A stretch of 64,000 bases of DNA from Candidatus Poseidoniaceae archaeon (GTDB taxonomy: Archaea; Thermoplasmatota; Poseidoniia; Poseidoniales; Poseidoniaceae). Positions 27,596-47,072 of the stretch are shown here, piece after piece (the first letter of the stretch is position 1; every line of letters begins with the position of its first letter). The translations under genes were made by a program, and so were the position numbers. The notes below the pieces were generated by a model. That model was not told the DNA's origin and searched no databases. It saw nothing but the letters and a program-made list of their open reading frames with translations. The DNA lies in assembly GCA_965659685.1 (NCBI GenBank), contig CBFHXB010000002.1, forward strand, positions 71,903 through 135,902, given 5' to 3'.

Positions 27596-30500
27596 TCATG
27601 CGATGCGCTCGAAGGCGCCGTCGTCGCGGAGCTTCCATCGCCCTGTGCCCTCGCCTTCGTAGTACGTACCTTCCGTGGTGTACTCGTAGTCGCCTCCTCC
27701 GGGGAGTTCGGTGTGATCGCCGACCACTGCTCCCGCATCCAACAGCGATGCAGGTTCGTGAACGTGTTCGGTGACCGGGGTGAGCGCGGCCAAGGCAGCT
27801 TCTGCGTTCGCCAAATCCACGGTCGCAGAGGCCGGCTTTGTTGGTGGTGCACGGGGGCCACCGGCCACACGTCGGTCAGCACCTGGGGGTCCCTTGGGCT
27901 TCGGCTTGGATGGGCCACCCGATGGGCCAGGAAGGGCTGCTTCAAGGTCGTCTTCGGTGTGACCTCGCCGCCTCAAGAGGACCACGGCGAGGGCGAGCAC
28001 GGCCAATCCACCGCCGCCGACCACCGCTGCTCCCATGCCGCCACCTGCGTTTTGGCCTCGGTAGGTCCAGAGGTTGTCGTCTTCGTCCAATTCGCTGACC
28101 TCGTCGTTGGCGTCAACGGTTACGCGCAAGGTCCACTCGCCCTTTGGGACGTTGAAGTTGCCACGGATCAATTCTGACTCATCGGCACCGAGGCCGCTGA
28201 TTTCGCGCCGGACGACCACGGCCTCCTCCCCGTCGCTTTCGAGCGTGATTTCAACCACGAAGGGTCGGTCAATGGCTTCCGACCGGGCGATGACGGGCGC
28301 GGCGACAAGCACATTCGCTCCTTCTGAATCAACATCGCCGTTCAGGGTCACGTCTCCCAGTTCCAAATCAGGGCCTTCGTCGGTTAACGTGGCCACGAAC
28401 CATGGGTCGCTGGCCGTCAGGTCCGACGCACCCACGAGCGGGCGCCCCGCATCGTCCCGGCCGTTGGCCCAACAGGACAGGCTCGCTTGCGGGTCGAGGT
28501 CCGCCGGGTCCCCGACGTTGGAGAAATTGAACACCGCTGTGAAAAGCGTGAGGTCCTCGAAGATGCCCGTAGGTGGCACGGATTGTGTCACTTCGGGCCA
28601 AGACCGTTCGGTCGAGGTCACTTGGCAGGTGACGTTGATCGGCCCGTTCCATCCCGTGTCCTCCTCGACGTTGACGCCGACGGTGACCTCGTCGAGGTGG
28701 TAACGGGACCACGAGGCTTCTGCGCTCTTGGCCACCAAGAATGGGGGGGTGGCGTCAACGTCCATCGGTGACAACACGATTTGGTGGAGCATGACCGTGT
28801 CCTGGGGGTCCCAGACTTCAATCCGGGCGAGCATCAAGCGTCCTCCCGCGGTCGGGGCAGGGATGCCGGTGTCGAGCACACCGTCTTGGATGAGGACCGT
28901 ACTGCCCCCGTCCCAACGCACAGCGCCGACGTTGCCAAACCATCGGATTCGGAGCCCTCCTTCATACGGCACGCCGCTGGTGCTGTGGTTGACGGTGGCG
29001 CTCAAGTTCAGGTGCTCTCCGACGGCAAGGACGCTGTCTGCGTCGATCGGCCCTTGGGTGGCGCCTTCCAAATCTGAGAGGTTCACGCCATCGAAGGTCA
29101 GCTCCCTGGCGAAGGTCCACGCCCCGGCAAGCTCGGTGGCGTTCGTGCCGTCGATGTCTTTGGCGACGATTCGGACCGCTCCTTCGATGAGTGAACCGGG
29201 CACCAAGGCCCATTCTGGGGCAAAGGCCAGGTCTACCGTCATCACGTCGTTGGACACCGAAGCAGCGCACGCCACCACGGCCGTTCGCCCGTCCAAGTTC
29301 TGACACTGTTCGCTGATGACGTCCCAACGGACCCCGAGGTTGACGTCCCCACCGAGTTCAATCCGGAGTTCTTGAACGTCCTCCAGACCGTTGCCGTCGG
29401 TCAAGGACACCTGCCATTGAAGGGGCCGGCCGGGCTCGAGGTGTTGTAACGTACCGTCGCTTGGGTTGATGCTCAGAACGTCGACGGTACGCGGGATCCT
29501 GGTGGTCCAATTCAGGTGGCCGGATTCAGCCGCCACGTTCGCCACAGGGAGTCCTGCAAGGTCGCTTCCCAGGACCAACACGCGAACGGCTTGATGGTCA
29601 TCGTTGGCGCTGTCGTCAACGGTGAAGTTGGCGGTCCAGACCGTGCCTGTGTTGGACCACGTCGCGGGCACCTGGACGTATTCCCCGAGGCTTGCGAGCC
29701 CGTCGATTTGGCCACCGTTTTGGCCGTCGTCTCTCGCTTCGACCCAGACGCGGAAATCGACGTCAGCGGGATCGAATCCTCCGACTTCTGCGAAGCTGAG
29801 GATGACGTTTCGTGCTGCGTTTTGATTCGCATAGGCCGCTTGATTCGGGCTGCTGCCGAGCAGGCTTGGGGCTTGGGCATCGAGGACAAAGGCGGTGCCG
29901 TCGTTTTCGAAGAGGAGGGTGGCGTTGGCTTCCGTACGAAGTTCGATGCGGAGGTCAGCAGGCCCGGAGGCATCCGAAGGAAGCACCATCGTCAGTGGGG
30001 CCAGGCTCGCGAGGCTGAGGTCGGTCCACGCGGTGGACATGTTGAACCACGTTGAGGCAGGCACGAGTTGACCTGCGGCAAGGTCCTCCACGCTCAGGTG
30101 CATGCGTGCTTGGAAGGCGCCGTCAGCCGGTCCGTCGTTTCGACTCGGGAAAGACGCTGAGAGGTCCACGGTCAACACACGGTCTGCGGCCACGACGACG
30201 GACGAAGTCGCCATCAGGTCCCGTCCATCGGCGGTGATGGCATCGAGGGTGACCTCGATGTCATCGGTCCACGTCAGCGTCGGGTTGTCCGGTGCAGCGG
30301 CGAAGACCAAGGAACCGTCATCGGCCTTGATTTCGAGGTGCATGTCCATTTGATTGAGGTTGACCACGCCCTGGTCCAGGTGAAGGTTCCACGCGAGTTC
30401 GGGTGGCGTTTGTTGGACGAGGTGAACGCTGCTGTTTGCGGTGTTGACGACCCGCAGGGCATCCATCGGGCTTGTGAGGGTCCATGTTCCACCGTTTTCC

Positions 30501-32224
30501 TCTGCCACGATCCGCTGGGTGCGTCCAAAGCCGGCGTCGAGGACCAGTTCCGCGCTGTCCCATTCGGTGTTGACGTCGACCAAGGTGGTCACGTTCAGCG
30601 GTTGACCGTAACTTTGCAGCGACGTGCGATCCAGGGCCGTGAACACGGTTTCCTCCATGCCCCAAGCAACGGCATCGAGGTCCGGCAAGGTCCATGCTTC
30701 ACCCTTTGTTGTGCTCAGCACGACACGGCACTGCATCCAGGGGTGCAAGTCGAGGAATTCTTCCACAGACCGTTCACTGCCGGAAACGCTTGGTTCCGGA
30801 ATGCTATGGTTGCCGATGGGGTGGTTGTAGCTGAAATTGCCGATCATCGGTTGCCAATCGATGCCGTTGAGCAACAGCGCATCCGGGGCGGTCCGGTACT
30901 GCAAGCCGAGGGAGGTTCCCGCAGGCGTGCTGCCGTCGAGGCGAATCCAGCGGAACATGGCATCGCCATGGGCGACGCTTCGGAGGTCGATTGGGGGTGA
31001 CGTCAACGTCCCTGTGTGCTCGGCGGGGCTGACGTAACGGTTGGACGTGGAGCGGAGTTGCAACCAATTCCAGGACGGATTCCCGGCATCGCCTCCGATG
31101 ACATAGGTGGCGTTGTTGTACTGCGTCCAGGCCATGCTGTGAACCGCGATGAGCAAGTTCCCCATGTTGCGCCACTCATCGGTGTCCGGTAACCAACCGT
31201 AGGTCCGGCGTTGTGCTCCCGTGCTCGAAGCGCCTCCAAACAGCACGATTTCGTCGTGGATGACGGTGGCCCCTGCCCCTGAAATGGCCACGCCCAAATC
31301 GGTGTGATTGGACCACGTTCCATTGCTCATGTGCATGCGTTCGGTCGTGTTGGTCAAGTCCCAACTGGCGGTGGGTGGTCCACCACCTGACGATGTCGCC
31401 GTGGTCTTGTAGCCACCCATGACGTAGAGGTTGCCGCGGTAATGGGCGGCTGCAGGCAGGACACGTGGTGTCGTGAGGTTCCCTTGCGCGGTCCAGGTGT
31501 CGTTGTCGATGTCGTAACTGGAACTGGTGTTCATCGCCATCACGTTCCCCGTCCGGTTCACACCACCGACCACGTACATGACGCCGTTGTGATGCGCATA
31601 GCCGGCTTTTCCAACGGCCCTGTCGCCGGGCATTGCGGTTCCAAGGCTCCAGGTGTCCGTCGTGAGGTTGTAGCGTTGCACCAAGCCTGAGGTAAACGAA
31701 GGGACCGAGGATTGGCTGTCTTCCATCGGAAGATCGCCCGCGAGCACCAAGGTGTCCCCCCAGCGGGCGCATCCTGCGAAGGATTGTGTGTTCGGCAGAG
31801 GATTGGAGGCCACGGTCCACGTGCCGTTGGTGACGTCGTAGATCTCGATCATGCTGGTCTCTTCCTCGTCGTTCCATTGGCTGGACGGATCGATGATGCC
31901 ACCGACCAACCACAATTCGTTCCGTTCTGGGATGGGGAACAAGCAAGCCGCCATGCGTGGAAACTGAGGTGTTCCTGCTGGCCCGGACCAGGCCACGGAG
32001 GGTCGGTCGATGACCACCTCGTTCCCGTCGCTGTCCCAACTGGTGCCGCTGAGGTTCCACCCAGTGCCGTTGAAATCAGCTTGCATGGCGCTTGCGGGCA
32101 TGGTGAAGGGGGCGGGCGCCTCCAAGGCCGTTTCAACGCCTCCCGAGGTCGGCATCACCATCGCCCATGGCATCGTGAGGAAGAGACCGAGCACAACCAA
32201 GGCTTGGAGGGTGGTCTTCGACAT
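27596..32224 (-). CDS. Giant Kelch-repeat surface protein with TM anchor and about 150-aa cytoplasmic tail (1542 aa)
   Basis: Signal-like MSKTTLQALVVLGLFLTMPWAMV. The N-terminal Kelch/galactose-oxidase-type propeller repeats include LWLVGG, IEIYDVTNGTWT and MYVVGG. A CARDB-like module lies near the C-terminus (... VDANDEVSELDEDDN). The TM helix is GGGGLAVLALAVVLL followed by RRRGH. Confidence 0.85.
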   Translation of the reverse strand: MSKTTLQALVVLGLFLTMPWAMVMPTSGGVETALEAPAPFTMPASAMQADFNGTGWNLSGTSWDSDGNEVVIDRPSVAWSGPAGTPQFPRMAACLFPIPERNELWLVGGIIDPSSQWNDEEETSMIEIYDVTNGTWTVASNPLPNTQSFAGCARWGDTLVLAGDLPMEDSQSSVPSFTSGLVQRYNLTTDTWSLGTAMPGDRAVGKAGYAHHNGVMYVVGGVNRTGNVMAMNTSSSYDIDNDTWTAQGNLTTPRVLPAAAHYRGNLYVMGGYKTTATSSGGGPPTASWDLTNTTERMHMSNGTWSNHTDLGVAISGAGATVIHDEIVLFGGASSTGAQRRTYGWLPDTDEWRNMGNLLIAVHSMAWTQYNNATYVIGGDAGNPSWNWLQLRSTSNRYVSPAEHTGTLTSPPIDLRSVAHGDAMFRWIRLDGSTPAGTSLGLQYRTAPDALLLNGIDWQPMIGNFSYNHPIGNHSIPEPSVSGSERSVEEFLDLHPWMQCRVVLSTTKGEAWTLPDLDAVAWGMEETVFTALDRTSLQSYGQPLNVTTLVDVNTEWDSAELVLDAGFGRTQRIVAEENGGTWTLTSPMDALRVVNTANSSVHLVQQTPPELAWNLHLDQGVVNLNQMDMHLEIKADDGSLVFAAAPDNPTLTWTDDIEVTLDAITADGRDLMATSSVVVAADRVLTVDLSASFPSRNDGPADGAFQARMHLSVEDLAAGQLVPASTWFNMSTAWTDLSLASLAPLTMVLPSDASGPADLRIELRTEANATLLFENDGTAFVLDAQAPSLLGSSPNQAAYANQNAARNVILSFAEVGGFDPADVDFRVWVEARDDGQNGGQIDGLASLGEYVQVPATWSNTGTVWTANFTVDDSANDDHQAVRVLVLGSDLAGLPVANVAAESGHLNWTTRIPRTVDVLSINPSDGTLQHLEPGRPLQWQVSLTDGNGLEDVQELRIELGGDVNLGVRWDVISEQCQNLDGRTAVVACAASVSNDVMTVDLAFAPEWALVPGSLIEGAVRIVAKDIDGTNATELAGAWTFARELTFDGVNLSDLEGATQGPIDADSVLAVGEHLNLSATVNHSTSGVPYEGGLRIRWFGNVGAVRWDGGSTVLIQDGVLDTGIPAPTAGGRLMLARIEVWDPQDTVMLHQIVLSPMDVDATPPFLVAKSAEASWSRYHLDEVTVGVNVEEDTGWNGPINVTCQVTSTERSWPEVTQSVPPTGIFEDLTLFTAVFNFSNVGDPADLDPQASLSCWANGRDDAGRPLVGASDLTASDPWFVATLTDEGPDLELGDVTLNGDVDSEGANVLVAAPVIARSEAIDRPFVVEITLESDGEEAVVVRREISGLGADESELIRGNFNVPKGEWTLRVTVDANDEVSELDEDDNLWTYRGQNAGGGMGAAVVGGGGLAVLALAVVLLRRRGHTEDDLEAALPGPSGGPSKPKPKGPPGADRRVAGGPRAPPTKPASATVDLANAEAALAALTPVTEHVHEPASLLDAGAVVGDHTELPGGGDYEYTTEGTYYEGEGTGRWKLRDDGAFERIA

Positions 32225-32276: not shown

Positions 32277-33545
32277 ATGTTGATGAGGGGTGGCGTGGGT
32301 GCGGGGCCGAAGCCCATGGCCGAGTACATCGCCCGAGACCCTCGCACCGGCAAGCCCATCGAGATGACCACGGTTGTTCAGCGGGCGCAGGTCGAGGAGA
32401 ACCATCGAGGCGCATGGTCACGTTTGACCCCCGCCCAGGTGCTTGAGCTGGCCACCGGGAGCGTCGATGCCCTCGATCTGATGCTCGACGGAGAGCGTCG
32501 TCATTTCACGCGACTTGACGGCGTGGCAGGTTTGGTGATGGCCAAAGGGACCTACGCCGATGCGGCATACCACGCCCTCATCGACGCGTGCATGGACGAC
32601 GATGCCAAGATCCGGCAAGCGGCTTTGCGGGCCATGCCCGAAGTTGCCCAGCAACGTTCGGACGAGCTGTTCGATCACCTGAGCGTGCTCATCGACGATC
32701 CCGAGGACATCGTCCAAGCCGCGGCCAGCGATGCCCTTCGAAGGATGGCGCCGGTGTTCCCATCCGGCGTCGAGGACAGCCTCGTCAACGCCCTCCGCTC
32801 CTCGGACTCTCGCTTGTCCAAAGCCGCTTGGGAAGGCCTCCGCGTCATGGGCGAATCCTGGCCATCTGTGGTCTGCGTTCACGTGGACAGCCTGTTGCTC
32901 GAGGATTCCGTCGACCTGCGGAAACAAGCCGCAAGGGTGCTTCAGCGGGTCGTGGCACGAGCGGGCCACCAGGGGTGGGATCTGGTCACATGGGCCCTCG
33001 CAGACGACGAAGTTGTGGTCCGTCGGGAAGCGGCGAAGTGCCTGCCAAAGTTGGTGAATCCCGCGCCCAAGATGGCCGTCATTCTGGCCGAGAAAGTGCT
33101 CTACGACACGGACGCCACGGTGAGAAACCGTGCTCTGAAGGTGCTCGAGCGGGTGGACCTCGGAGGCAGCCGAGCCAAATCCATCGTCCTCGCAGGCACA
33201 CGGCACGAGATGGTCGACATCCGGCGTGCGTGCGTGGAAATGCTGCATCGCTTCATGGGTGAAGAGGACCAGCGCAGTTTTGCTCAGGACCGGCTCCAAA
33301 TTGAGCAGGACCCTGGCATCCGTGCGCTCTTGATGGAGATGATCTTCGACCCGGAAATCGACGGCGACGAAGACCAAAAGAACCGCTTCTTGGCCCCGGC
33401 CGAACCCGTTCCTCAACTGGACCGGGAAGTGGCGCAAGCGATGGAGCAATCCATCGGTATGCTCGAACCTGAACCCGCGGAACGACCCCCGCCTGCATCG
33501 GTGGACGAGGCCGAACCCGTGGAAGACGGTGGCCAACACCGTTAA
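32277..33545 (+). CDS. HEAT-repeat protein
   Basis: Repeated D-x-D/E-x-x-V/I-R-x-x-A-x-x-x-L helical pairs are present (DDDAKIRQAALRAM, DPEDIVQAAASDALRRM, EDSVDLRKQAARVL, DDEVVVRREAAKCL, DTDATVRNRALKVL). The tail is acidic. Confidence 0.7.
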   Translation: MLMRGGVGAGPKPMAEYIARDPRTGKPIEMTTVVQRAQVEENHRGAWSRLTPAQVLELATGSVDALDLMLDGERRHFTRLDGVAGLVMAKGTYADAAYHALIDACMDDDAKIRQAALRAMPEVAQQRSDELFDHLSVLIDDPEDIVQAAASDALRRMAPVFPSGVEDSLVNALRSSDSRLSKAAWEGLRVMGESWPSVVCVHVDSLLLEDSVDLRKQAARVLQRVVARAGHQGWDLVTWALADDEVVVRREAAKCLPKLVNPAPKMAVILAEKVLYDTDATVRNRALKVLERVDLGGSRAKSIVLAGTRHEMVDIRRACVEMLHRFMGEEDQRSFAQDRLQIEQDPGIRALLMEMIFDPEIDGDEDQKNRFLAPAEPVPQLDREVAQAMEQSIGMLEPEPAERPPPASVDEAEPVEDGGQHR

Positions 33546-41295: not shown

Positions 41296-42120
41296 TCAGT
41301 TACGCTCGTGCTCGATGTCGGGTGCGAAGCCGTCGCGGGCGTCGCTCATGCCGCCGTACATGGCCTGCACAAAGGTGAGGATGTCGGCAAGACCTTCTTC
41401 AAGTTCCGACGACAATGGGGTCAGGCCAGGAGCTTGCGAAAAGGACTGCATCAAGCGGAGCTGGTTGATGGCGAATTCCGTGCGCTGACCGCCGGCTTCG
41501 TCAAACAAGGCTTGCTCGAGGATCTCAAGACGCTCGGACCACTCGAGGACGCGTTCCAGCTCTTCCTCATCAAGCAGGTCGCTCTTGGAGAGGAAGTTCT
41601 TGGTCGGAAGGCCCAATCGGAATTCAACGATCGACGACAGCAGCATTTGACTGACGAAACCGCTCGGGGACCGTGACAACATCGGGTCGAAGAGGTAGAT
41701 GATGGCGGCTTGTTCGCGCCCCAGCACGTCGATGAGGTGGCTGCTGGCTTCACGGAAGGCAAAGAGTTCGACTTGCCCGGGGGTGTCGACAATCATCAGT
41801 TCGCCCGAGAGCGTGTGCAGTTGCTCCGCAACGTCACCCGCTTGGGCAGCGAGGAGGTCGGCGGCCAAGATTTGGGCGCCGTTGGGTCCAAGGTCGTATT
41901 CGTCCATGACCTCGGTGAGGGAGATCATGTCACGGACGTCGAATTCGGCGTCGTAGTGCACCCGTTCGGCCCCTGGGTCGAGGTTGACGGCAAGAACTTC
42001 GGTTTCGAGGAACCGTGACCAGCGTTGGAACGCCGTCACCAGCGAGGATTTTCCGGCACCGGCAGTGCCCACCACGAAGACAACAGGGGGAGTGCTTGAG
42101 TCGCCGCCGGCCATGGTCAT
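41296..42120 (-). CDS. GPN-loop GTPase
   Basis: P-loop GTAGAGKSS, NLDPGAE and the eponymous GPNGA loop are present. Confidence 0.85.
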   Translation of the reverse strand: MTMAGGDSSTPPVVFVVGTAGAGKSSLVTAFQRWSRFLETEVLAVNLDPGAERVHYDAEFDVRDMISLTEVMDEYDLGPNGAQILAADLLAAQAGDVAEQLHTLSGELMIVDTPGQVELFAFREASSHLIDVLGREQAAIIYLFDPMLSRSPSGFVSQMLLSSIVEFRLGLPTKNFLSKSDLLDEEELERVLEWSERLEILEQALFDEAGGQRTEFAINQLRLMQSFSQAPGLTPLSSELEEGLADILTFVQAMYGGMSDARDGFAPDIEHERN

Positions 42121-42248
42121 CGGCGGTTATGGCCCTTCTTCAACGCGACGGAGCCAGAACGCCACCTTCCGCGCTGAAGTGGGGAACGGTTATGTGCTCA
42201 TCAGCGATGCAAACGTTGCCGCCTTACGGCTCTTCAGGAGGAAGAAGC

Positions 42249-45200
42249 ATGACCGACGAAAACATTCCACCCGCACCCCCCGGTCTCCCACCTGCTCCTC
42301 CCGCCCCTCCCGGCCTTCCACCGGCGCCCCCAATGCCACCCGGCATGGGCGCTCCCCCTGCCCCTCCCGGCATGGAAGCTCCACCGGCTCCTCCCGGCCT
42401 CCCCCCTGCTCCACCGATGCCTCCTGGCATGGAAGCACCTCCCGCGCCTCCCGGCATGGATCCGCTCGCTGCTCCTCCCGCGCCTCCCGGCATGGATCCG
42501 CTCGCTGCTCCTCCCGCGCCTCCCGGCATGGATCCGCTCTCCGCTCCTCCCGCCCCACCCGGCATGGGCGCGCTCGCCGCTCCTCCCGCGCCTCCCGGCA
42601 TGGACGCGCTCGCCGCTCCTCCCGCCCCTCCCGGCATGGACGCGCTTGCTGCTCCTCCCGCTCCTCCCGGCATGGACGCGCTTGCTGCTCCTCCCGCCCC
42701 TCCTGGCTTGGACCCGCTCATCTCCGATGGGCTGATGCCCCCTGCGCCTCCTGCGTTAGAGCCCTTGACGGAAGACGAGTTGGAATCCTTGGAAGAACCG
42801 TCCGAAGCACTTGCAACGGACCCCTTGGCCATGCCCGCGCCTCCCGCACCTCCTGGTCTCGAAGCACTTGCAGCGGACCCCTTGGCCATGCCCGCGCCTC
42901 CCGCACCTCCCGGTCTCGAAGCACCTGCCGAGGACCCCTTGGCCATGCCCGCGCCTCCCGCACCTCCCGGTCTCGAAGCGCCGGCCGAGGACCCCTTGGC
43001 CATGCCCGCACCTCCTGCCCCTCCCGGCATGGACGCGCTCGCAGCCCCACCCGCTCCGCCAGGCCTTGACCCGCTCGCCGCGGATGCTTTGCTCGCACCT
43101 CCGGCGCCACCCGCGCTCGACATGCCTGCCGAGGACCCGTTGGCCATGCCTGCCCCACCCGCCCCTGCTGGGCTTGATCCGCTGGCAGCGGATGCACTTC
43201 TCGCGCCCCCCGCTCCTCCCGCTGATCCTCTGGCGGCGGATGCCTTGATGGCACCACCCGAGCCGCCTGCAGACCTCCCTGACCTGACCGCAGCCCTCCC
43301 TGTTGAGGGCGTACAGGGCGCAGGCGAGGACAAGGTGGACGCAACCGAAGAAGGCCTGTCTGGCGTGGTTGCCGGTGCAGTCTTGCGGTCCTCCGACGAA
43401 GTCGACAGCATTGCGGGCGACAAGCTCGAAGGAAGCATTCACGAAGTGGAAGACACCACCGTGGATGCGGACGGTCACGTGACCAAGCAGAAGGTCACGG
43501 GGACCCTTACGCTGTCGAACCCTTCCAAGGACGACCGTGTCTACGACGTGGACGCCGTCATGTCCGATTCGTCCTCGACGAACCTCAAGGGGAACGTGGT
43601 GAGCGTCGAAGAACTGGAGCCCGGTCAGGAGCATGCCGTGTCGTACACCGTGTCCGACCGCAACATGCTGATGATGGCAGAGCGCTTCGACACCAACCCG
43701 GCTCGGGACAAGGAGCGCTCGCTTTCCTTGGCCATGGGCGCTGAGAACACGATTTCCCTCGAATTGGAGGTCCGCAACGTTGCGTCCACCGGTTTGCACG
43801 ATGTCGTCGTGACCCGCCCGCTTCCTGACGGCATGAACGTCACCGAAGTGGAGCACGCCACCGTTGAGGACGGTACGCTCACGTGGGACGTCGGCCACCT
43901 TGACGTCGGTGCATCGAGCACCATCGTGGTGCGAGGAACCCTCGTCGCCACCGGCAAGGACCCCGTTTCCAGCGGTGCGGCCACCGCCACCTACCGTGCT
44001 GACGCCGCCCTGTCCACGATGAACTTCGAGGATTTGGACGCCTTCTGCCGCGGTTTCGCTTACATGCGATCCGTCGAAGGTGAACGCCCTGACACGTGGG
44101 AAGTCACCGCCGTGTTCGAGAACCGTTCCTCCTTTGCCGTGGACTTGGTCAAGCTTCAGGCTCGGCTCAAAGGCAGCGATGAGTTGCTGTTCGACTTCAG
44201 CGACGTGAACGAAGACGTCGCTCCCCATGGCGAGTGGCGGTCTGAATCGGTCAGCGTTGCCTCGGCCGAGAAGCCGGACCTGACGTGGGAACTCTCCTAC
44301 ACCGTGCTGCCGCGCACCAGCGCCACCACCGAGGGTACGCTCACAATGACGCCACGCGATTTGGCCATCGTTGACGCAACGGTGGAGAAGTCCTACAGCA
44401 AATCGAAGCTTCATTCCTACCGTGAGCAAACTGTTCAGGCAGAGATCCGCATCACCAACACCGGTTCGTCCGACATCAACCTGATGCGTCTCACCGACGA
44501 CATCCCTGGCGTGTTCCACGCCGTGGACAGCTCGACCCTGAAGATCAAGCAGGCCGGACAATCCCTGCCTCCCGAGCAATTCAAGGCCGATGTCAGCGAA
44601 GGCATCACCCTCGAAGGCGAACACCACAGCCCTGACGGCGCAGGTCACACCCTGACCTTGACCATCGGGCGCAAGGGTCCCATCGGCATGGCTCCCGGCG
44701 AAGTCGTGGTCGTGACCTACGACCTCGTGGCGCCCGACCCTTCGCCTCAGAACGAACGCGTGGACGCCCCAATCCGTGGCGAATTCAGTTGCGAGCGCTT
44801 TGGCCCAGTCTGTGAGCGTGACGTCGAGTCGGCTCCATCGGTCCGTGTTGTCCACAACCGCCGTGACTTTTCGGCGGGCAAGCAGGCCTTGAAGGTCGGA
44901 GGGCGTGGCCGTTACGAAGTGCTGATCCTCTTCGAGAACAACGGCGACACGCCCCTGGCTGACGTCCAGCTCAAGGACGTCATTCCGCCCGGCTACGAGA
45001 TGACGGACTGCGAAGTGCGTGCGAACAACTCGGCCCTCGAGAACGTTGAGACCAGCCAGGAGACGGACGCCACAGGCACCACCGTCATCTGGCATCTTCC
45101 AAGCGTCGGCAAGGCCGAGCGCATCGACGTGGCCTACATGATCAAGGGCGAAGGAGACATCGACACCGACCTCCTCAACACCTTCCACGGCGCCGTCTTT

Positions 45201-45629
45201 GGCGACGAAATCGAGGACGATGACGCAGAACCCGAAGCACCTGCAGAAGCCGAAGAGGCTTCCGAGGAAGTTGAGAGTGCACCTGCGGTGAAGTTCCGAG
45301 ACGACGTGCTCGACCGCGTCATGGACGCCCACGGCATCGACAGCGAGCACCGTGACGCCTTCATCGCCCACGCCGCCGCGTTCGACCACGACGGCAACAA
45401 CTACCTCAAGAAGCAGGAGTTGGAGGACGCCGCCACCGCATGGAACGAAGCACACGGTGATTCTTCCGAGGACGAGGGCATCGCAGAAGCCGAGGAAGAA
45501 GCGGAAGCATCCGAAAGCGACGACGCGGAGGTCGAATCGGCAGAGACCAAGTCTTGCCCGATCTGCATGAAGGACGTTGCAGCGGACGCCACCGAGTGCG
45601 ACTGCGGATTCAAGTTCGAGGAGAACTGA
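42249..45629 (+). CDS. Signal-less 1126-aa repeat protein with a poly-PPxPPG region, beta-sandwich (DUF11/CARDB-like) repeats, an EF-hand-like loop and a C-terminal zinc ribbon
   Basis: The ATG at 42249 is preceded by AGGAGG 8 nt upstream. The in-frame upstream extension overlaps the divergent GPN gene. There is no hydrophobic N-terminus or TM segment anywhere. DHDGNNYLKKQELEDA fits an EF-hand loop. The protein ends CPICMKDVAADATECDCGFKFEEN*. Confidence 0.85.
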   Translation: MTDENIPPAPPGLPPAPPAPPGLPPAPPMPPGMGAPPAPPGMEAPPAPPGLPPAPPMPPGMEAPPAPPGMDPLAAPPAPPGMDPLAAPPAPPGMDPLSAPPAPPGMGALAAPPAPPGMDALAAPPAPPGMDALAAPPAPPGMDALAAPPAPPGLDPLISDGLMPPAPPALEPLTEDELESLEEPSEALATDPLAMPAPPAPPGLEALAADPLAMPAPPAPPGLEAPAEDPLAMPAPPAPPGLEAPAEDPLAMPAPPAPPGMDALAAPPAPPGLDPLAADALLAPPAPPALDMPAEDPLAMPAPPAPAGLDPLAADALLAPPAPPADPLAADALMAPPEPPADLPDLTAALPVEGVQGAGEDKVDATEEGLSGVVAGAVLRSSDEVDSIAGDKLEGSIHEVEDTTVDADGHVTKQKVTGTLTLSNPSKDDRVYDVDAVMSDSSSTNLKGNVVSVEELEPGQEHAVSYTVSDRNMLMMAERFDTNPARDKERSLSLAMGAENTISLELEVRNVASTGLHDVVVTRPLPDGMNVTEVEHATVEDGTLTWDVGHLDVGASSTIVVRGTLVATGKDPVSSGAATATYRADAALSTMNFEDLDAFCRGFAYMRSVEGERPDTWEVTAVFENRSSFAVDLVKLQARLKGSDELLFDFSDVNEDVAPHGEWRSESVSVASAEKPDLTWELSYTVLPRTSATTEGTLTMTPRDLAIVDATVEKSYSKSKLHSYREQTVQAEIRITNTGSSDINLMRLTDDIPGVFHAVDSSTLKIKQAGQSLPPEQFKADVSEGITLEGEHHSPDGAGHTLTLTIGRKGPIGMAPGEVVVVTYDLVAPDPSPQNERVDAPIRGEFSCERFGPVCERDVESAPSVRVVHNRRDFSAGKQALKVGGRGRYEVLILFENNGDTPLADVQLKDVIPPGYEMTDCEVRANNSALENVETSQETDATGTTVIWHLPSVGKAERIDVAYMIKGEGDIDTDLLNTFHGAVFGDEIEDDDAEPEAPAEAEEASEEVESAPAVKFRDDVLDRVMDAHGIDSEHRDAFIAHAAAFDHDGNNYLKKQELEDAATAWNEAHGDSSEDEGIAEAEEEAEASESDDAEVESAETKSCPICMKDVAADATECDCGFKFEEN
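42264..43285 (+). repeat. In-frame tandem coding repeats (about 39-nt and about 57-nt periods) encoding some 24 PPxPP units
   Basis: Units such as APPAPPGMD(P/A)LA (13 aa) are repeated about 8 times with near-identical DNA. Units DPLAMPAPPAPPGLEA(L/P)A(A/E) (19 aa) are repeated about 4 times, with degenerate copies on both sides. Confidence 0.9.
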
Positions 45630-45630
45630 A

Positions 45631-46050
45631 TCAGAACGGAAGTTGCCACCGGGGCGCCAGCTCCGGGTCTTCGTCTTCGTCAACGATGAGGATGACCGGA
45701 CGGCGCATGCTCACGAGCAGTTCCTCCAGCGGTGTCCGTGTTGCCGGTGCCATGGTGCCCACGCGGAGATCCACTGCAAGCCAAGCTTCCGGGTACTGCC
45801 GCATCCAAGCCCCGAGTTCAGCCTCGATGGACTCAGGTGGCGCTCCAGGACGAACGCTTGGCAAATGACCCCAGCCCTGCGGGCAGCGTTGCTCCATCTC
45901 CGTCCAGAGGAAGACGCGTGGCGCGCTGGGCAGGCGTGCGAGTTGGGCTTCGGCCTCCTCCAAGGTGGCGCTGACCGGCTGTCCGGGCATCGGCATTGGG
46001 AGCGGGTGCGCCCAGCCCGGATTGACATCGAGTGGACTTCGGCGGCGCAT
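45631..46050 (-). CDS. Hypothetical 139-aa protein
   Basis: It is the most protein-like of three overlapping ORFs in this interval (... LEELLVSMRRPVILIVDEDEDPELAPRWQLPF*). Its stop lies 1 nt from the upstream convergent stop. No family recognised. Confidence 0.4.
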   Translation of the reverse strand: MRRRSPLDVNPGWAHPLPMPMPGQPVSATLEEAEAQLARLPSAPRVFLWTEMEQRCPQGWGHLPSVRPGAPPESIEAELGAWMRQYPEAWLAVDLRVGTMAPATRTPLEELLVSMRRPVILIVDEDEDPELAPRWQLPF

Positions 46051-46196
46051 GGTGGGCGGTTGACGGGGAGGGACTTGAAGGCATCAGCCGTCCGTGTGGA
46101 CGGGCGAACGTTCATGCCGTGCATTCACGCCGTCGGGGTGTGAGCACCCCATCGGCCCCCGGCGGCCCCGCACCGCCTGCGCCCCCTCAAGGCGCC

Positions 46197-47072
46197 ATGT
46201 TCACCATGCTGGCCATGATGCTCATGATGGTCTTGCTCGTCGTCAATCCGAACATTCGGAACACGCTTGGGGACATCGCTGACCCGATCTTGTCCCCAGT
46301 GCTCCCCGAGGAGCGCTTCGTCATTATCACCTTGCTCATTTTGGGCAGCGCATCGATGCTGGTGAACACCGTCTTGCGCAACCTGTTCATGGATCCGATT
46401 GCACAGGCCCACCTCCAGCACCGGCAGGGTCAGGTGCGTCAAATCATGAACGAGGCTCGCATGTCCCGGGACTCGACCCTTCAGGACAAGGCCATGACCT
46501 TGCAACAGCAGATGATGCCCGAGCAACTCAGCGTGCAAATGGGCGCCATGAAACCGATGATGTTCACCATGGTGTTCATCATCGCTATTTTTGCTTGGCT
46601 GACGACCACCGTGGAAGACTTCCGTGTGGGCTACATCTCCCTGCCGTGGGCGCCAGAATGGGGTCTGAATGATCGCTTTCTCTTGTTCCCTGCATGGATT
46701 TGTGCCTACATTTGCATGAGTGCGCCGTTGGGTCGCGTGGTGGACCGGCACATCAAACTCCTCCGCTACCGCAACCATCCCTTGGTGAAGGCCGAGGAGA
46801 CCATCCCTGAGCCGCTCCTTCACCTGATTCAAGGAAAGAAGGGGAGCGGCGATGGCTCCACCAAGCGTCGTCAAGAACAGCGCCGCCGCCGCGACGGACC
46901 ACGCAAGCGCAACGACGAAGCCGCGGCTGCAAAGACGGAAGATGGCGAGACGGCGCCCAAGGCTTCCTCGGCAGCCAAAGATCTGGCGTGCCCTACCTGT
47001 TGGAGCGATCAAGTGCGCCGTGAAGGGCCACGGACCAAGGTCTGCCAAACCTGCTTCCACGAGTGGGTGTGA
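46197..47072 (+). CDS. DUF106/EMC3-like (archaeal YidC/Oxa1-superfamily) membrane protein with basic linker and C-terminal zinc ribbon
   Basis: TM1 is MFTMLAMMLMMVLLVV. A Met/Gln-rich coiled hairpin follows (MNEARMSRDSTLQDKAMTLQQQMMPEQLSVQMGAMKPMM), then TM2/TM3. It holds the conserved position immediately upstream of cmk-cbf5. The tail is KRRQEQRRRRDGPRKRND ... CPTCWSDQ ... CQTCFHEWV*. Confidence 0.75.
   Translation: MFTMLAMMLMMVLLVVNPNIRNTLGDIADPILSPVLPEERFVIITLLILGSASMLVNTVLRNLFMDPIAQAHLQHRQGQVRQIMNEARMSRDSTLQDKAMTLQQQMMPEQLSVQMGAMKPMMFTMVFIIAIFAWLTTTVEDFRVGYISLPWAPEWGLNDRFLLFPAWICAYICMSAPLGRVVDRHIKLLRYRNHPLVKAEETIPEPLLHLIQGKKGSGDGSTKRRQEQRRRRDGPRKRNDEAAAAKTEDGETAPKASSAAKDLACPTCWSDQVRREGPRTKVCQTCFHEWV

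What the first reader, a model, noticed from the sequence alone, without database searches (positions are those of the whole stretch)
42249..45629. Signal-less 1126-aa protein: about 24 tandem PPxPPG(M/L) units, four beta-sandwich repeats, an EF-hand-like loop and a C-terminal zinc ribbon
The first 340 aa or so are almost entirely (A/M)PPAPPG(M/L)(D/E)xLA-type units. I counted 24 PPxPP cores by hand, a density reminiscent of eukaryotic FH1 / proline-rich scaffold regions. There follow about four 110-130-aa modules that look like DUF11/CARDB-type beta-sandwiches (for example ISLELEVRNVASTGLHDVVVTRPLPDGMNVTEV and YEVLILFENNGDTPLADVQLKDVIPPGYEMTD). These domains are normally extracellular. After them come a very acidic region, a canonical-looking EF-hand loop (DHDGNNYLKKQELEDA) and a terminal CPxC ... 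CxC zinc ribbon. I see no signal peptide, TM helix or sorting signal. The start is well defined by AGGAGG 8 nt upstream, and the in-frame upstream extension collides with the divergent GPN GTPase gene. I do not recognise a cytoplasmic protein combining a poly-proline ligand array, surface-type beta-sandwiches and a zinc ribbon as any described family. It could be a multivalent docking scaffold at the inner face of the envelope.
Basis: partly seen in the sequence, partly recalled or inferred. Interest (0 to 1): 0.75.

Follow-up and report, generated by a model that had tools for sequence, protein, structure and literature searches.

The report
Adaptor-like scaffold protein in marine archaea
This is a real, highly conserved cytoplasmic protein of Marine Group II archaea whose five-domain beta-sandwich core is related to the cargo-binding "mu-homology" domain of eukaryotic vesicle-coat adaptors, a kind of protein so far reported only from Asgard archaea, and here it also carries a long proline-motif array, an EF-hand and a zinc ribbon.

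Summary
Two details need correcting: there are five beta-sandwich domains, not four, and 19 exact PPxPPG[ML] units among 26 PPxPP cores. It has no signal peptide or TM segment.

It is the positional orthologue of a single-copy gene found in at least 210 Poseidoniales (MGII) species genomes. These orthologues are about 50% identical over the core, and synteny is conserved (GPN GTPase | gene | EMC3-cmk-cbf5).

The new result is that the five-domain core is homologous as one unit to a 600-800-aa family in Asgard archaea (hhalign E 3.5e-84). This is the family that Eme et al. 2023 listed as "AP mu-subunit C-terminal domain" (PF00928) candidates. Domains D1+D2 align collinearly with the eukaryotic mu-homology domain. 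The support is:
- Pfam hits in relatives up to E 1.9e-10, above the gathering score.
- A family profile hit to AP-3 mu at E 1.7e-5.
- Foldseek TM 0.55-0.66 to mu2, mu3, mu4 and delta-COP.

The proline array, EF-hand and zinc ribbon are lineage-variable additions.

Best reading: a cytoplasmic multivalent adaptor or scaffold. Its partners, its location and its actual function are not known.

The parts
42236..42241 (+). Shine-Dalgarno-like AGGAGG, 7 nt before the ATG
   Evidence: Read directly from the sequence. Some gene callers extend orthologues upstream so that the conserved GGAGG reads as '...RGGIEM' before the same MSDEK start.
42249..45629 (+). Complete CDS, 1126 aa plus stop
   Evidence: More than 556 homologues were found. 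Codon-position GC of the core is 0.65/0.43/0.77, as in other genes of the window.
42249..43283 (+). N-terminal acidic proline-motif array (aa 1-345). It holds about 20 units of the family-wide motif [ML]-x-A-P-P-A-P-P-[GE]-[ML], with no Lys/Arg, no aromatic residues and no PPP.
   Evidence: Copy number varies from 11 to 36 PPxPP cores in full-length orthologues. A strain 98% identical in the core has 79 fewer residues, missing five 12-aa units and one 19-aa unit.
42438..42719 (+). 36-nt tandem array, 7.8 copies (12-aa unit APPAPPGMDxLA)
   Evidence: Tandem Repeats Finder, 91% matches.
42803..43027 (+). 57-nt tandem array, 3.9 copies (19-aa unit EAPAEDPLAMPAPPAPPGL)
   Evidence: Tandem Repeats Finder, 94% matches.
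43419..44075 (+). Mu-homology-domain-like module (aa 391-609), made of beta-sandwich domains D1 (aa 393-481) and D2 (aa 493-599). D2 also matches DUF11/CLIPPER.
   Evidence: AF2 model. Foldseek to mu2/mu3/mu4/delta-COP mu-homology domains gives target-normalised TM 0.55-0.66. Relatives match PF00928 over profile positions 12-236 of 259. The family profile A3 hits AP-3 mu at E 1.7e-5. hhalign of A3 against a mu2 alignment pairs core residues 46-264 with mu2 166-417 (E 1.1e-4, probability 56%).
44052..44348 (+). Beta-sandwich D3 (aa 602-700), with the motif ERPDxWxxxxxFENRSSFAVDL
   Evidence: AF2 model. Weak Alpha_adaptinC2 hit, E 0.055. Invariant residues listed.
44358..44852 (+). Beta-sandwich D4 (aa 704-868), larger than the others and with insertions. 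Motifs SPDGxGH and APDPSPxN.
   Evidence: AF2 model. Weak DUF11 and DUF7507 hits.
44868..45149 (+). Beta-sandwich D5 (aa 874-967), DUF11/CLIPPER-like. K878, D910 and N977 are invariant.
   Evidence: AF2 model. TIGR01451 E 2.9e-8. Family profiles weakly hit the gamma-adaptin ear (E 0.03-0.23). Conservation.
45174..45215 (+). Invariant linear motif LNxFHGxxFGDExE (aa 976-989) at the exit of D5
   Evidence: L, N, F, G, F, G, D, E, E are invariant in 102 of 102 orthologues (H in 101). FG[DES]E is kept in the distant orthologues P0124, P0127, P0132 and P0135.
45300..45455 (+). Three-helix EF-hand module (aa 1018-1069). The candidate Ca2+ loop is aa 1046-1057 (nt 45384-45419). Disordered acidic linkers flank it on both sides.
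   Evidence: AF2 pLDDT about 90. Calmodulin hits at E 0.025-0.1. EF-hand_6 E 0.027. Loop invariance.
45549..45626 (+). C-terminal zinc ribbon (aa 1101-1126), CPIC-x10-CDC
   Evidence: Four Cys invariant. UPF0547 E 4.3e-5.
41296..42120 (-). Divergently transcribed GPN-loop GTPase gene. The 128-nt intergenic region is presumably a shared promoter region.
   Evidence: PF03029 E 1.4e-52. The arrangement is kept in loci L001, L007, L010 and L091.
46032..47072 (+). Downstream EMC3/DUF106 (YidC/Oxa1-like) insertase homologue. It follows the target gene directly in other lineages.
   Evidence: PF01956 E 4.8e-14. In L007 it overlaps the target gene's end by 22 nt. In L091 it starts 38 nt after it.

Best explanation
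**What it is.** The gene encodes a soluble cytoplasmic scaffold or adaptor protein of Poseidoniales (Marine Group II archaea, family Poseidoniaceae).

**The core (shown by computation).** Residues about 390-970 form a rigid string of five beta-sandwich domains. This string is homologous, as one collinear unit, to a 600-800-aa protein family of Asgard archaea. The first two domains correspond to the mu-homology domain (MHD), the peptide-motif and cargo-binding module of the eukaryotic AP-complex mu subunits and of delta-COP.

**The additions (shown by computation).** Around this core, the MGII lineage has added three things:
- A 160-365-aa acidic, disordered N-terminal array of 11-36 copies of the motif Phi-x-APPAPP-[GE]-Phi, where Phi is Met or Leu.
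- A single EF-hand.
- A C-terminal zinc ribbon on an acidic tether.

The proline array and the EF-hand are absent from some positional orthologues, so they modulate the function rather than define it.

**How it probably works (inferred, not shown).**
- The beta-sandwich core is a platform that binds short linear motifs or membrane-protein tails, as MHDs and adaptin ears do.
- The proline array is a multivalent polyproline-II ligand or tether. It would recruit or cluster a partner that is still unknown, or bind the core of neighbouring molecules.
- The EF-hand makes assembly Ca2+-sensitive or mediates dimerisation, because lone EF-hands normally pair.
- The zinc ribbon docks the protein to a fixed partner.

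**Where it may act (the weakest step).** The site of action may be the cytoplasmic face of the membrane. The hints are operon-like linkage to the EMC3/YidC-like insertase in some lineages and one TM-anchored Asgard relative.
For: **Real and conserved.** More than 556 homologues were found, about 50% identical over 97% of the core. At least 210 species-level Poseidoniales genomes encode it. More than 150 columns are invariant across 102 orthologues. Synteny GPN | gene | EMC3-cmk-cbf5 holds down to 32-38% identity.

**Cytoplasmic.** No hydrophobic segment was found, and 58 of 61 relatives also lack one. The same heuristic detects signal and anchor segments in four surface proteins of the window. 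The zinc ribbon and EF-hand are invariant.

**Structure.** The AF2 model has mean pLDDT 82 and shows five beta-sandwiches, an EF-hand module and a zinc ribbon.

**Link to Asgard proteins.**
- hhalign of the MGII alignment against the distant alignment: probability 100%, E 3.5e-84, 578 columns.
- Every distant homologue that carries a taxonomic name is Asgard: Njordarchaeales, Thorarchaeota, Hodarchaeales and Promethearchaeota.
- The first PF00928 candidate in Eme et al. Table S3 aligns to the MGII profile at E 2.2e-16.

**Link to the MHD.**
- 31 of 50 distant members hit PF00928.
- P0155 scores 40.9 bits against a cut-off of 31.6, over profile positions 12-236 of 259, which is D1+D2.
- The family-wide profile that includes MGII sequences hits almost only adaptor proteins in the PDB: AP-3 mu 1.7e-5, AP-2 mu 0.006, delta-COP 0.07.
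- hhalign against a mu2 alignment is collinear over mu2 166-417 (E 1.1e-4).
- Foldseek gives target-normalised TM 0.55-0.66 to MHD structures.

**Additions are accessory.** The positional orthologue P0132/P0271 (687 aa) has no proline array and no EF-hand but keeps the zinc ribbon. P0124 has an acidic N-terminus instead of a proline-rich one.
Against: - The window protein itself does not hit PF00928 at any threshold. Its own profile finds no adaptor in the PDB. The MHD link is therefore transitive, plus structural.
- hhalign against the low-diversity mu2 alignment gives only 56% probability.
- D2 matches DUF11/CLIPPER better than it matches the MHD, and beta-sandwich similarity can be convergent.
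- No longin domain, no other AP-subunit homologue and no ESCRT gene is linked to it. In the three Asgard loci examined (L003, L005, L006) the flanking genes differ from locus to locus, and the uncharacterised neighbours compared showed no similarity.
- No proline-binding domain (SH3, WW, GYF, EVH1, profilin) was found among the roughly 36 window proteins scanned. This covers only 64 kb of the genome.
- Nothing here tests binding, Ca2+ dependence, oligomerisation or localisation.
- MGII synteny is conserved over tens of kilobases, so adjacency to the GPN GTPase or EMC3 genes may mean little.
Confidence: 0.55

Rival explanations
1. It is a cytoplasmic structural protein specific to these lineages, for example a cortical or cytoskeletal lattice element. 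The resemblance to mu-homology domains is generic Ig-fold similarity with no adaptor-like function. The proline array is only an entropic spacer or brush.
For: The window protein has no direct PF00928 hit. hhalign to mu2 gives only 56% probability. D2 and D5 score best as DUF11. The top Foldseek hits by E-value are generic multi-Ig proteins such as integrin legs and C123. The array's sequence and length vary widely and it is absent in some orthologues.
Against: PDB hits of the family profile are almost exclusively adaptor mu subunits, delta-COP and the gamma-ear. They are not the many Ig-like adhesins in the PDB. The PF00928 matches span both D1 and D2 collinearly, and one exceeds Pfam's gathering score. 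The motif core APPAPP-[GE]-[ML] is conserved across MGIIa and MGIIb even though copy number changes. That argues for a recognised motif rather than a mere spacer.
Confidence: 0.22
2. It is an accessory factor of membrane-protein biogenesis or sorting that works with the neighbouring EMC3/YidC-like insertase. This is a specific version of the adaptor idea: the core binds nascent or newly inserted membrane proteins, and the zinc ribbon docks to the insertase or to the ribosome.
For: The EMC3 homologue follows the gene on the same strand in every MGII locus examined. The two genes overlap by 22 nt in L007 and are 38 nt apart in L091. The EMC3 homologue in the window has its own C-terminal zinc ribbon and a basic tail.
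Against: In the window and in L001/L010 a convergent 139-aa gene separates the two. The linkage is absent from the Asgard loci examined and from L009. The whole region is syntenic in MGII, so adjacency is weak evidence.
Confidence: 0.1
3. It is an extracellular or surface stalk/adhesin of the DUF11/CLIPPER type, exported by an unconventional route. The proline-rich region would span the envelope as in TonB-like proteins.
For: DUF11/CLIPPER domains occur typically in surface fibrillar adhesins (bioRxiv 10.1101/2025.04.25.650565). The protein is very acidic. A K/D/N triad spaced like the CLIPPER isopeptide triad is invariant in D5.
Against: The conserved N-terminus of 27 full-length orthologues carries no signal peptide or TM segment. 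There is no C-terminal sorting signal; the C-terminus is an invariant four-Cys zinc ribbon. Real surface proteins in the same window have clear signal and anchor segments. Asgard relatives lack signal peptides as well.
Confidence: 0.08
4. It is an artefact: a mis-assembled repeat region, or the real gene is the 975-aa antisense ORF (42756-45683, -).
For: A short-read assembly of a strain 98% identical in the core has 79 fewer residues in the array, which could be repeat collapse. The antisense ORF passes a simple GC3 filter.
Against: Long polished contigs keep a full-length array. The plus-strand protein has hundreds of homologues and folds confidently. The antisense open frame shrinks to 383 and 150 aa in lower-GC orthologues.
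Confidence: 0.02

Closest known systems
Asgard archaeal 'Adap_comp_sub (PF00928)' eukaryotic-signature-protein candidates (Eme et al. 2023, Nature; PMC10307638, Supplementary section 4.3.1 and Table S3)
   Same: Homologous over all five beta-sandwich domains in the same order (hhalign E 3.5e-84; the listed Jordarchaeia candidate at E 2.2e-16). Both are cytoplasmic, both lack a longin domain, and both have DUF11-like D2 and D5 domains.
   Different: The organism is a Poseidoniales archaeon (Thermoplasmatota), not an Asgard archaeon. Identity is only 20-28%. The MGII proteins add the proline-motif array, the FGDE motif, an EF-hand and a zinc ribbon. The Asgard proteins instead carry HEAT-like or other N-terminal domains, or coiled-coil inserts.
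Eukaryotic mu-homology-domain proteins, especially the muniscins (FCHo1/2, SGIP1, Syp1) and the AP mu subunits and delta-COP
   Same: D1+D2 align collinearly with the MHD and superpose with target-normalised TM 0.55-0.66. As in muniscins (my own knowledge), a disordered proline-rich region is joined to an MHD in one polypeptide.
   Different: The window protein has no direct PF00928 hit. It has no longin, F-BAR or membrane-binding domain. Three extra beta-sandwiches follow the MHD-like module. The tyrosine-motif pocket is not evidently conserved: mu2 D176 pairs with a His in a low-confidence alignment. No partner AP subunits are known. Function is untested.
DUF11/CLIPPER (PF01345) stalk domains of fibrillar adhesins (bioRxiv 10.1101/2025.04.25.650565)
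   Same: D2 and D5 pass the Pfam and TIGRFAM cut-offs. The fold is an Ig-like Greek-key sandwich. D5 has an invariant K/D/N triad with CLIPPER-like spacing.
   Different: There is no signal peptide, adhesive head or sorting signal. The domains are not tandem copies of one unit but five distinct domains conserved as a fixed set. The protein is cytoplasmic.
Archaeal adaptin-appendage-like IG proteins in ESCRT neighbourhoods (Meth_adaptin and Halo_adaptin systems; Makarova et al. 2024, mBio, PMC10936438)
   Same: Both are cytoplasmic multi-IG archaeal proteins with weak similarity to adaptin ears, and some have a zinc ribbon. Here D3 hits Alpha_adaptinC2 at E 0.055, and the family profiles hit the gamma-adaptin ear over the D5 region at E 0.03-0.23.
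   Different: No Vps4 or ESCRT-III gene lies in this window or in any locus examined. There is no TBP-fold subdomain. That paper does not mention MHDs or Poseidoniales.
Formin FH1 and other polyproline ligand arrays
   Same: A long, repetitive, proline-rich, disordered segment with regularly spaced hydrophobic residues.
   Different: There is no PPP anywhere (0 of 52 PP dipeptides are extended). There is no FH2 domain, no basic residues for SH3 binding, and no aromatic residues for WW or EVH1 binding. No profilin-like partner is known in MGII.

Membership tests
Mu-homology domain (Pfam PF00928 Adap_comp_sub) | The protein itself matches the Pfam model at or above the gathering score (31.6 bits) | tested here: not met
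   No PF00928 hit for the whole protein at E<=1, nor for the D1-D2 fragment at E<=10.
Mu-homology domain (Pfam PF00928 Adap_comp_sub) | Homology reachable through family profiles or relatives | tested here: met
   31 of 50 distant relatives hit PF00928, and P0155 scores 40.9 bits over profile positions 12-236 of 259. The relatives are linked to the window protein at hhalign E 3.5e-84. The combined profile hits AP-3 mu at 1.7e-5 and AP-2 mu at 0.006. hhalign against a mu2 alignment gives E 1.1e-4 and probability 56%.
Mu-homology domain (Pfam PF00928 Adap_comp_sub) | Elongated all-beta fold made of two beta-sandwich subdomains | tested here: met
   Foldseek hits mu2, mu3, mu4 and delta-COP MHD chains at E about 1e-8, target-normalised TM 0.55-0.66, rmsd 5-7 A. 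Strand-level topology, in particular the return of the chain to subdomain A, could not be checked because no coordinates were available.
Mu-homology domain (Pfam PF00928 Adap_comp_sub) | Conserved YxxPhi-binding pocket (mu2 F174, D176, K203, W421, R423; from my own knowledge) | tested here: inconclusive
   In the hhalign alignment mu2 D176 pairs with His/Glu of the motif 'IHEVE'. The alignment is too weak to judge the pocket.
AP-complex mu subunit (full protein) | N-terminal longin domain (PF01217) fused to the MHD, and membership of a heterotetramer | tested here: not met
   No PF01217 hit. The N-terminus is a disordered proline array. Partner subunits cannot be tested with these tools.
Asgard PF00928-candidate family (Eme et al. 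2023) | Collinear homology over the multi-domain core to the listed candidates | tested here: met
   Named relatives come from Njordarchaeales, Thorarchaeota, Hodarchaeales and Promethearchaeota.
DUF11/CLIPPER (PF01345) | Pfam gathering score | tested here: met
   43.3 bits against 24.6, E 5.4e-11. TIGR01451 33.6 bits against 24.
DUF11/CLIPPER (PF01345) | Typical surface-adhesin context: signal peptide, tandem identical repeats, sorting signal | tested here: not met
   The five domains are distinct from one another.
DUF11/CLIPPER (PF01345) | Intramolecular Lys-Asn isopeptide bond with a catalytic Asp or Glu | not testable with these tools
   K878, D910 and N977 are invariant, with spacing like K715/D748/N806 of PDB entry 9IFR. 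No model coordinates were available to check the geometry. The Asn position is Gln or Glu in the Asgard relatives inspected by eye (sequences).
EF-hand | 12-residue loop with ligands at positions 1, 3, 5 and 12, flanked by helices | tested here: met
   The loop D-H-D-G-N-N-Y-L-K-K-Q-E has positions 1, 3, 5 and 12 invariant. AF2 models it as helix-loop-helix at pLDDT about 90.
EF-hand | Pfam gathering score, a canonical residue at position 9, and a paired second EF-hand | tested here: not met
   EF-hand_6 scores 14.6 bits against 25. Position 9 is an invariant Lys, which falls outside the PROSITE PS00018 set as I recall it. Only one loop is present.
Zinc ribbon (UPF0547 / DZR type) | Two Cys pairs on a small beta-hairpin module | tested here: met
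   C1103, C1106, C1117 and C1119 are invariant. Two short strands are modelled. The Pfam score of 24 bits is below the cut-off of 29.
Formin FH1-type polyproline | Runs of five or more consecutive prolines next to an FH2 domain | tested here: not met
   0 PPP in the protein, and 2 PPP against 2575 PP in 120 orthologues. No FH2 hit.
Adaptin appendage (ear) beta-sandwich | Significant match to PF02883 or to gamma-ear structures | tested here: inconclusive
   D3 hits Alpha_adaptinC2 at E 0.055. Four of 50 relatives hit PF02883 and four hit AP3B1_C. The D5 profile hits the gamma-adaptin ear at E 0.03-0.23.

The most novel reading that the evidence does not exclude
Poseidoniales, which are not Asgard archaea, retain a true homologue of the eukaryotic coat-adaptor mu-homology domain. 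It sits inside a multivalent, possibly Ca2+-regulated scaffold built like an endocytic adaptor: a disordered motif array joined to beta-sandwich hubs. This would mean two things. First, the MHD arose in archaea from a pair of DUF11/CARDB-type Ig domains before, or independently of, the Asgard-eukaryote lineage, or was exchanged between Asgard and MGII archaea. Second, one of the ocean's most abundant archaeal groups may run a primitive system for motif-based sorting or clustering of membrane proteins.
Probability: 0.2. Interest if true: 0.85.

Novelty: new variant of a known kind. Interest (0 to 1): 0.68.

Why it matters
Mu-homology domains are the cargo-reading modules of the eukaryotic AP, COPI and muniscin coats. 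Archaeal relatives have so far been reported only as sparse Pfam hits in Asgard genomes, where they were used as evidence that eukaryotes inherited coat building blocks from an Asgard ancestor.

This work shows that the same five-domain family is a universal, syntenic, strongly conserved gene in Marine Group II archaea. That has three consequences:
- It changes the known distribution of this "eukaryotic signature" family.
- It supplies hundreds of orthologues for evolutionary and covariation analysis.
- It offers a version whose added parts (a proline-motif array, an EF-hand and a zinc ribbon) suggest direct experiments: which partner binds APPAPP-[GE]-[ML], and whether Ca2+ controls assembly.

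It also raises the idea that the MHD derives from DUF11/CLIPPER-like Ig domains.

If the resemblance turns out to be only structural, the protein is still a conserved protein of unknown function with an unusual architecture, in a globally abundant and uncultured lineage.

Tried and rejected
- **Single-sequence AF2.** The model of aa 346-1126 was useless (pLDDT 39). Only the alignment-based model could be used.
- **Direct searches with the window protein or the MGII-only profile against the PDB.** These gave only weak calmodulin hits. P0155 alone also gave nothing.
- **Foldseek against viral structures.** It returned only generic multi-Ig hits, with a tupanvirus DUF11 protein at the top.
- **Genome-collection scan with the divergent alignment A2.** It failed because no stretch was conserved enough. 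The word-indexed search with A2 found only 8 proteins.
- **Genomic context of the Asgard homologues.** In Njordarchaeales, Thorarchaeota and Hodarchaeales loci the flanking genes differ from locus to locus. Similarly sized unknown genes next to the Njord and Thor copies are unrelated.
- **Search for a second copy in the window.** None was found. The 687-aa "paralogue" turned out to be the positional orthologue in a Thalassarchaeaceae lineage.
- **Scan of about 36 further window proteins.** No SH3, WW, GYF, EVH1, profilin, ESCRT or small-GTPase partner was found.
- **Literature searches.** Poseidoniales or Marine Group II combined with proline-rich or polyproline gave nothing, and mu homology domain combined with archaea gave nothing.
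- **FH1/profilin analogy.** Rejected because PPP is absent.
- **Antisense 975-aa ORF.** Rejected as a high-GC artefact.
- **Isopeptide bond in D5.** Could not be tested because no coordinates were available.

Full report
**1. The observation**

The window encodes an ORF at 42249-45629 (+) of 1126 aa. AGGAGG lies at 42236-42241, 7 nt before the ATG. The upstream in-frame extension to 42015 runs into the divergent GPN-loop GTPase gene (41296-42120, -; PF03029 E 1.4e-52). That extension has no hydrophobic segment.

Residues 1-345 are 36% Pro, 24% Ala and 12% Leu. They contain 26 overlapping PPxPP cores and 19 exact PPxPPG[ML] units. The DNA holds tandem arrays with periods of 84, 36 and 57 nt.

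Pfam finds DUF11/CLIPPER above its cut-off (E 5.4e-11). It also gives weak hits to a UPF0547 zinc ribbon, DUF7507 and Alpha_adaptinC2. TIGR01451 is significant.

No 19-residue window exceeds a Kyte-Doolittle mean of 1.13. The same heuristic picks out signal-like and C-terminal anchor segments in the Kelch, CARDB and Big_9 proteins and the 1633-aa ORF of this window.

The corrections are five beta-sandwich domains instead of four, and slightly different motif counts.

**2. A real, conserved gene of Marine Group II archaea**

A search with residues 346-1126 returned more than 556 homologues. Those that carry names are Poseidoniales, Poseidoniaceae, Thalassarchaeaceae or "Euryarchaeota" MAGs. Most of the 120 listed are 50-54% identical over about 97% of the query, and the closest relatives reach 98%.

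A scan of species-representative genomes found 210 loci. The closest is 90% identical, in a Candidatus Poseidoniaceae MAG.

An alignment of 102 orthologues has more than 150 invariant columns.

Gene order is the same in loci whose proteins are 98%, about 51%, 38% and 32% identical to the window protein. The order is DUF3860, UbiA, OTCase, GPN GTPase (divergent), this gene, EMC3/DUF106, cmk, cbf5, CARDB protein.

Polished contigs of 1.1-1.5 Mb encode a 1122-aa orthologue with 36 PPxPP cores, so the array is not a short-read artefact.

A 975-aa antisense ORF inside the gene is a high-GC by-product. Its open frame shrinks to 383 and 150 aa in lower-GC orthologues.

**3. Anatomy**

An AlphaFold2 model built from the 102-sequence alignment has mean pLDDT 82. 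It shows these parts, in protein numbering:
- A disordered linker up to about aa 377.
- Five beta-sandwich domains: D1 393-481, D2 493-599, D3 602-700, D4 704-868 and D5 874-967.
- An invariant motif LNxFHGxxFGDExE (976-989).
- A disordered acidic linker.
- A three-helix module containing the EF-hand loop (1018-1069, pLDDT about 90).
- A second acidic linker.
- A small zinc ribbon (1101-1126).

In 102 orthologues the loop D-x-D-x-N-x-Y-L-K-K-x-E-L and the four Cys are invariant. The EF-hand is atypical in two ways. It has Lys at loop position 9, and there is no second loop. Pfam scores for it are below the cut-off. Ca2+ binding is therefore plausible but unproven.

**4. The N-terminal array across the family**

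All MGIIa and MGIIb orthologues with the conserved start M[ST][DE]E[KN].PP.PPG carry an array of 163-364 aa with 11-36 PPxPP cores.

The unit differs between clades. It is DPLA-APPAPPG[ML] here and MPPMPPMD-APPAPPE-M elsewhere. The core [ML]-x-A-P-P-A-P-P-[GE]-[ML] is shared.

The region has 0.5% Lys+Arg and almost no aromatic residues. Classical SH3, WW(PPxY) or EVH1(FPPPP) ligands are therefore unlikely, going by my own knowledge of those motif classes.

Triple proline is avoided to a striking degree. The window protein has 0 PPP against 52 PP. The 120 orthologues have 2 PPP against 2575 PP. Shuffles of the array give about 15.6 PPP, and never fewer than 4 in 2000 trials. This rules out an FH1-type polyproline. 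It fits either a strict PPxPP recognition motif or selection against ribosome stalling.

A strain 98% identical in the core differs by exactly five 12-aa units and one 19-aa unit. This is either real copy-number variation or repeat collapse in a short-read assembly.

The array is dispensable. The positional orthologue in a Thalassarchaeaceae lineage (687 aa) lacks both the array and the EF-hand but keeps the zinc ribbon. Another orthologue, P0124, has an acidic N-terminus instead, and P0127 has PPPPPAGF-type repeats.

**5. What the core is**

An exhaustive HMMER search of 1.84 billion representative proteins gave 429 hits at E <= 0.001. Many are proteins of 580-850 aa that are 20-28% identical and match core residues about 45-626 in one stretch.

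A profile-profile comparison of the MGII alignment with 50 of these gives probability 100%, E 3.5e-84, over 578 columns. All five domains are therefore inherited as a unit.

Every distant homologue that carries a taxonomic name is Asgard: Njordarchaeales, Thorarchaeota, Hodarchaeales and Promethearchaeota.

The links to the mu-homology domain are:
- Thirty-one of the 50 hit Pfam PF00928 (Adap_comp_sub, the mu-homology domain of adaptor complexes). The best E-value is 1.9e-10.
- In P0155 the match scores 40.9 bits against a gathering score of 31.6. It spans profile positions 12-236 of 259, which is D1 plus D2. P0149 and P0154 show the same span.
- A profile of 74 sequences that includes MGII members hits almost only adaptor proteins in the PDB. 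These are AP-3 mu (1.7e-5), AP-2 mu (0.006), delta-COP (0.07), AP-1 and AP-4 mu, and the gamma-adaptin ear.
- hhalign against an alignment of real mu2 sequences pairs core residues 46-264 collinearly with mu2 166-417 (E 1.1e-4, probability 56%).
- Foldseek with the window model finds generic multi-Ig proteins at the top with poor TM. It then finds many MHD chains (mu2, mu3, mu4, delta-COP) with target-normalised TM 0.55-0.66 and rmsd 5-7 A.

**6. Relation to the literature**

Eme et al. 2023 reported that Asgard archaea encode stand-alone "C-terminal domain of the mu subunit" (PF00928) proteins, and listed 44 candidates. The first listed candidate, from Jordarchaeia, aligns to the MGII profile with probability 98.7% and E 2.2e-16 over D1-D3. 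The MGII protein therefore belongs to that family.

Makarova et al. 2024 described adaptin-appendage-like IG proteins, some with zinc ribbons, in archaeal ESCRT neighbourhoods. They do not mention MHDs or Poseidoniales.

DUF11 was recently renamed CLIPPER and characterised as a surface-adhesin stalk domain that contains an isopeptide bond.

Searches for papers linking Poseidoniales or Marine Group II to proline-rich or polyproline proteins, or mu-homology domains to archaea, found nothing. The library is limited to open-access texts, so this is not proof of absence.

**7. Mechanism: what is shown and what is inferred**

Shown by computation:
- The protein is cytoplasmic and modular.
- Its core is homologous to the Asgard family.
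- D1+D2 are MHD-like in sequence profile and in fold.
- The added modules are conserved in sequence but variable between lineages.

Inferred:
- The core is a platform for protein-motif interactions.
- The APPAPP-[GE]-[ML] array is a multivalent polyproline-II ligand or tether.
- The single EF-hand gives Ca2+-dependent pairing.
- The zinc ribbon on an acidic tether docks to a partner.

This overall design is a disordered array of short motifs attached to beta-sandwich hubs. It is the design of endocytic adaptors such as the muniscins (proline-rich linker plus mu-homology domain), by my own knowledge.

The cellular process is unknown. The only pointers to the membrane are weak:
- The EMC3/YidC-like insertase gene follows directly. 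It overlaps the target gene by 22 nt in L007 and lies 38 nt downstream in L091.
- That insertase homologue has its own zinc ribbon.
- One Asgard relative has an N-terminal TM helix.

The three Asgard loci examined share no flanking gene with one another. No ESCRT gene, small GTPase, longin domain or proline-binding domain was found in this window.

**8. Rivals**

- The MHD similarity could be generic Ig-fold resemblance. The window protein has no direct PF00928 hit, and D2 scores better as DUF11. Against this, the PDB hits are specific to adaptors and the match is collinear over two domains.
- A surface-adhesin role is unlikely, given the conserved signal-less N-terminus and the C-terminal zinc ribbon.
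- An assembly or annotation artefact is excluded.

**9. Verdict**

It is wrong in calling the protein unrelated to any described family.

The protein is a new, decorated, non-Asgard variant of the archaeal MHD-like family. My confidence by level is:
- About 0.95 that it is a real cytoplasmic protein conserved in MGII.
- About 0.9 that it is homologous to the Asgard PF00928-candidate family.
- About 0.7 that D1+D2 are truly homologous to the eukaryotic MHD rather than convergent.
- About 0.35-0.4 that it acts as a motif-binding adaptor at the membrane.

Noticed in passing
window 42756-45683 (-): A 975-aa antisense ORF lies entirely inside the target gene and passes a simple GC3 filter. The longest antisense open frame falls to 383 and 150 aa in lower-GC orthologues, so it is a high-GC artefact.
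   Followed up: yes
window 45631-46050 (-): A conserved 139-aa orphan gene lies tail-to-tail with the target, 1 nt after its stop codon. It is 51% identical to the copy in locus L001 and has no Pfam hit. It is absent from loci L007 and L091, where the EMC3 gene follows directly.
   Followed up: partly
window 46032-47072 (+): The EMC3/DUF106 (YidC/Oxa1-like) insertase homologue ends in a basic tail followed by its own CxxC...CxxC zinc ribbon. The called GTG start is probably too far upstream: the first TM segment begins near residue 52.
   Followed up: partly
window 42249-43283 and 120 orthologues: Triple proline is strongly avoided. There are 0 PPP against 52 PP here and 2 PPP against 2575 PP in the orthologues, while shuffles give about 15.6 PPP. 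The divergent orthologue P0127 breaks the rule with 14 PPP.
   Followed up: yes
locus L010 3001-5901 compared with window 42249-43283: A strain 98% identical in the core has the same N-terminus but lacks exactly five 12-aa units and one 19-aa unit (1047 aa against 1126 aa). This is either copy-number polymorphism or repeat collapse in a short-read assembly.
   Followed up: partly
window 44880-45179 (K878, D910, N977 in domain D5): Lys, Asp and Asn are invariant and spaced like the isopeptide triad K715/D748/N806 of the CLIPPER crystal structure 9IFR. This raises the possibility of an autocatalytic isopeptide bond in a cytoplasmic protein. The geometry could not be checked.
   Followed up: partly
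window 27596-32224 (-) and 32277-33545 (+): A 1542-aa Kelch beta-propeller protein with a signal segment and a C-terminal TM-like segment is transcribed divergently from a 422-aa cytoplasmic HEAT-repeat protein. Some Asgard relatives of the target begin with HEAT-like motifs. No link between the two observations was tested.
   Followed up: no
window 7672-12573 (+): A 1633-aa ORF has a signal-like N-terminus and a C-terminal TM anchor but no Pfam hit at E<=1e-4.
   Followed up: no
window 12920-15778 (-) and 24420-26993 (+): Two large MMPL/Patched-type transporters are present, one of them with a sterol-sensing-domain hit.
   Followed up: no
proteins P0245, P0255, P0208, P0160 (distant relatives; only P0160 carries a taxonomic name, Hodarchaeales): The distant relatives vary in their added parts. 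Two have coiled-coil inserts of several hundred residues between D1 and D2. One has an N-terminal TM helix. Several have an N-terminal HEAT-like motif, and others a conserved N-terminal domain of about 100 aa with the motif 'WxFxFGxVEL'.
   Followed up: partly
loci L013, L085, L088: Three contigs that carry the gene are filed in public MAGs labelled as bacteria (Salinimicrobium, Rhodobiaceae, Salipiger). This is most likely binning contamination by Poseidoniales contigs.
   Followed up: no
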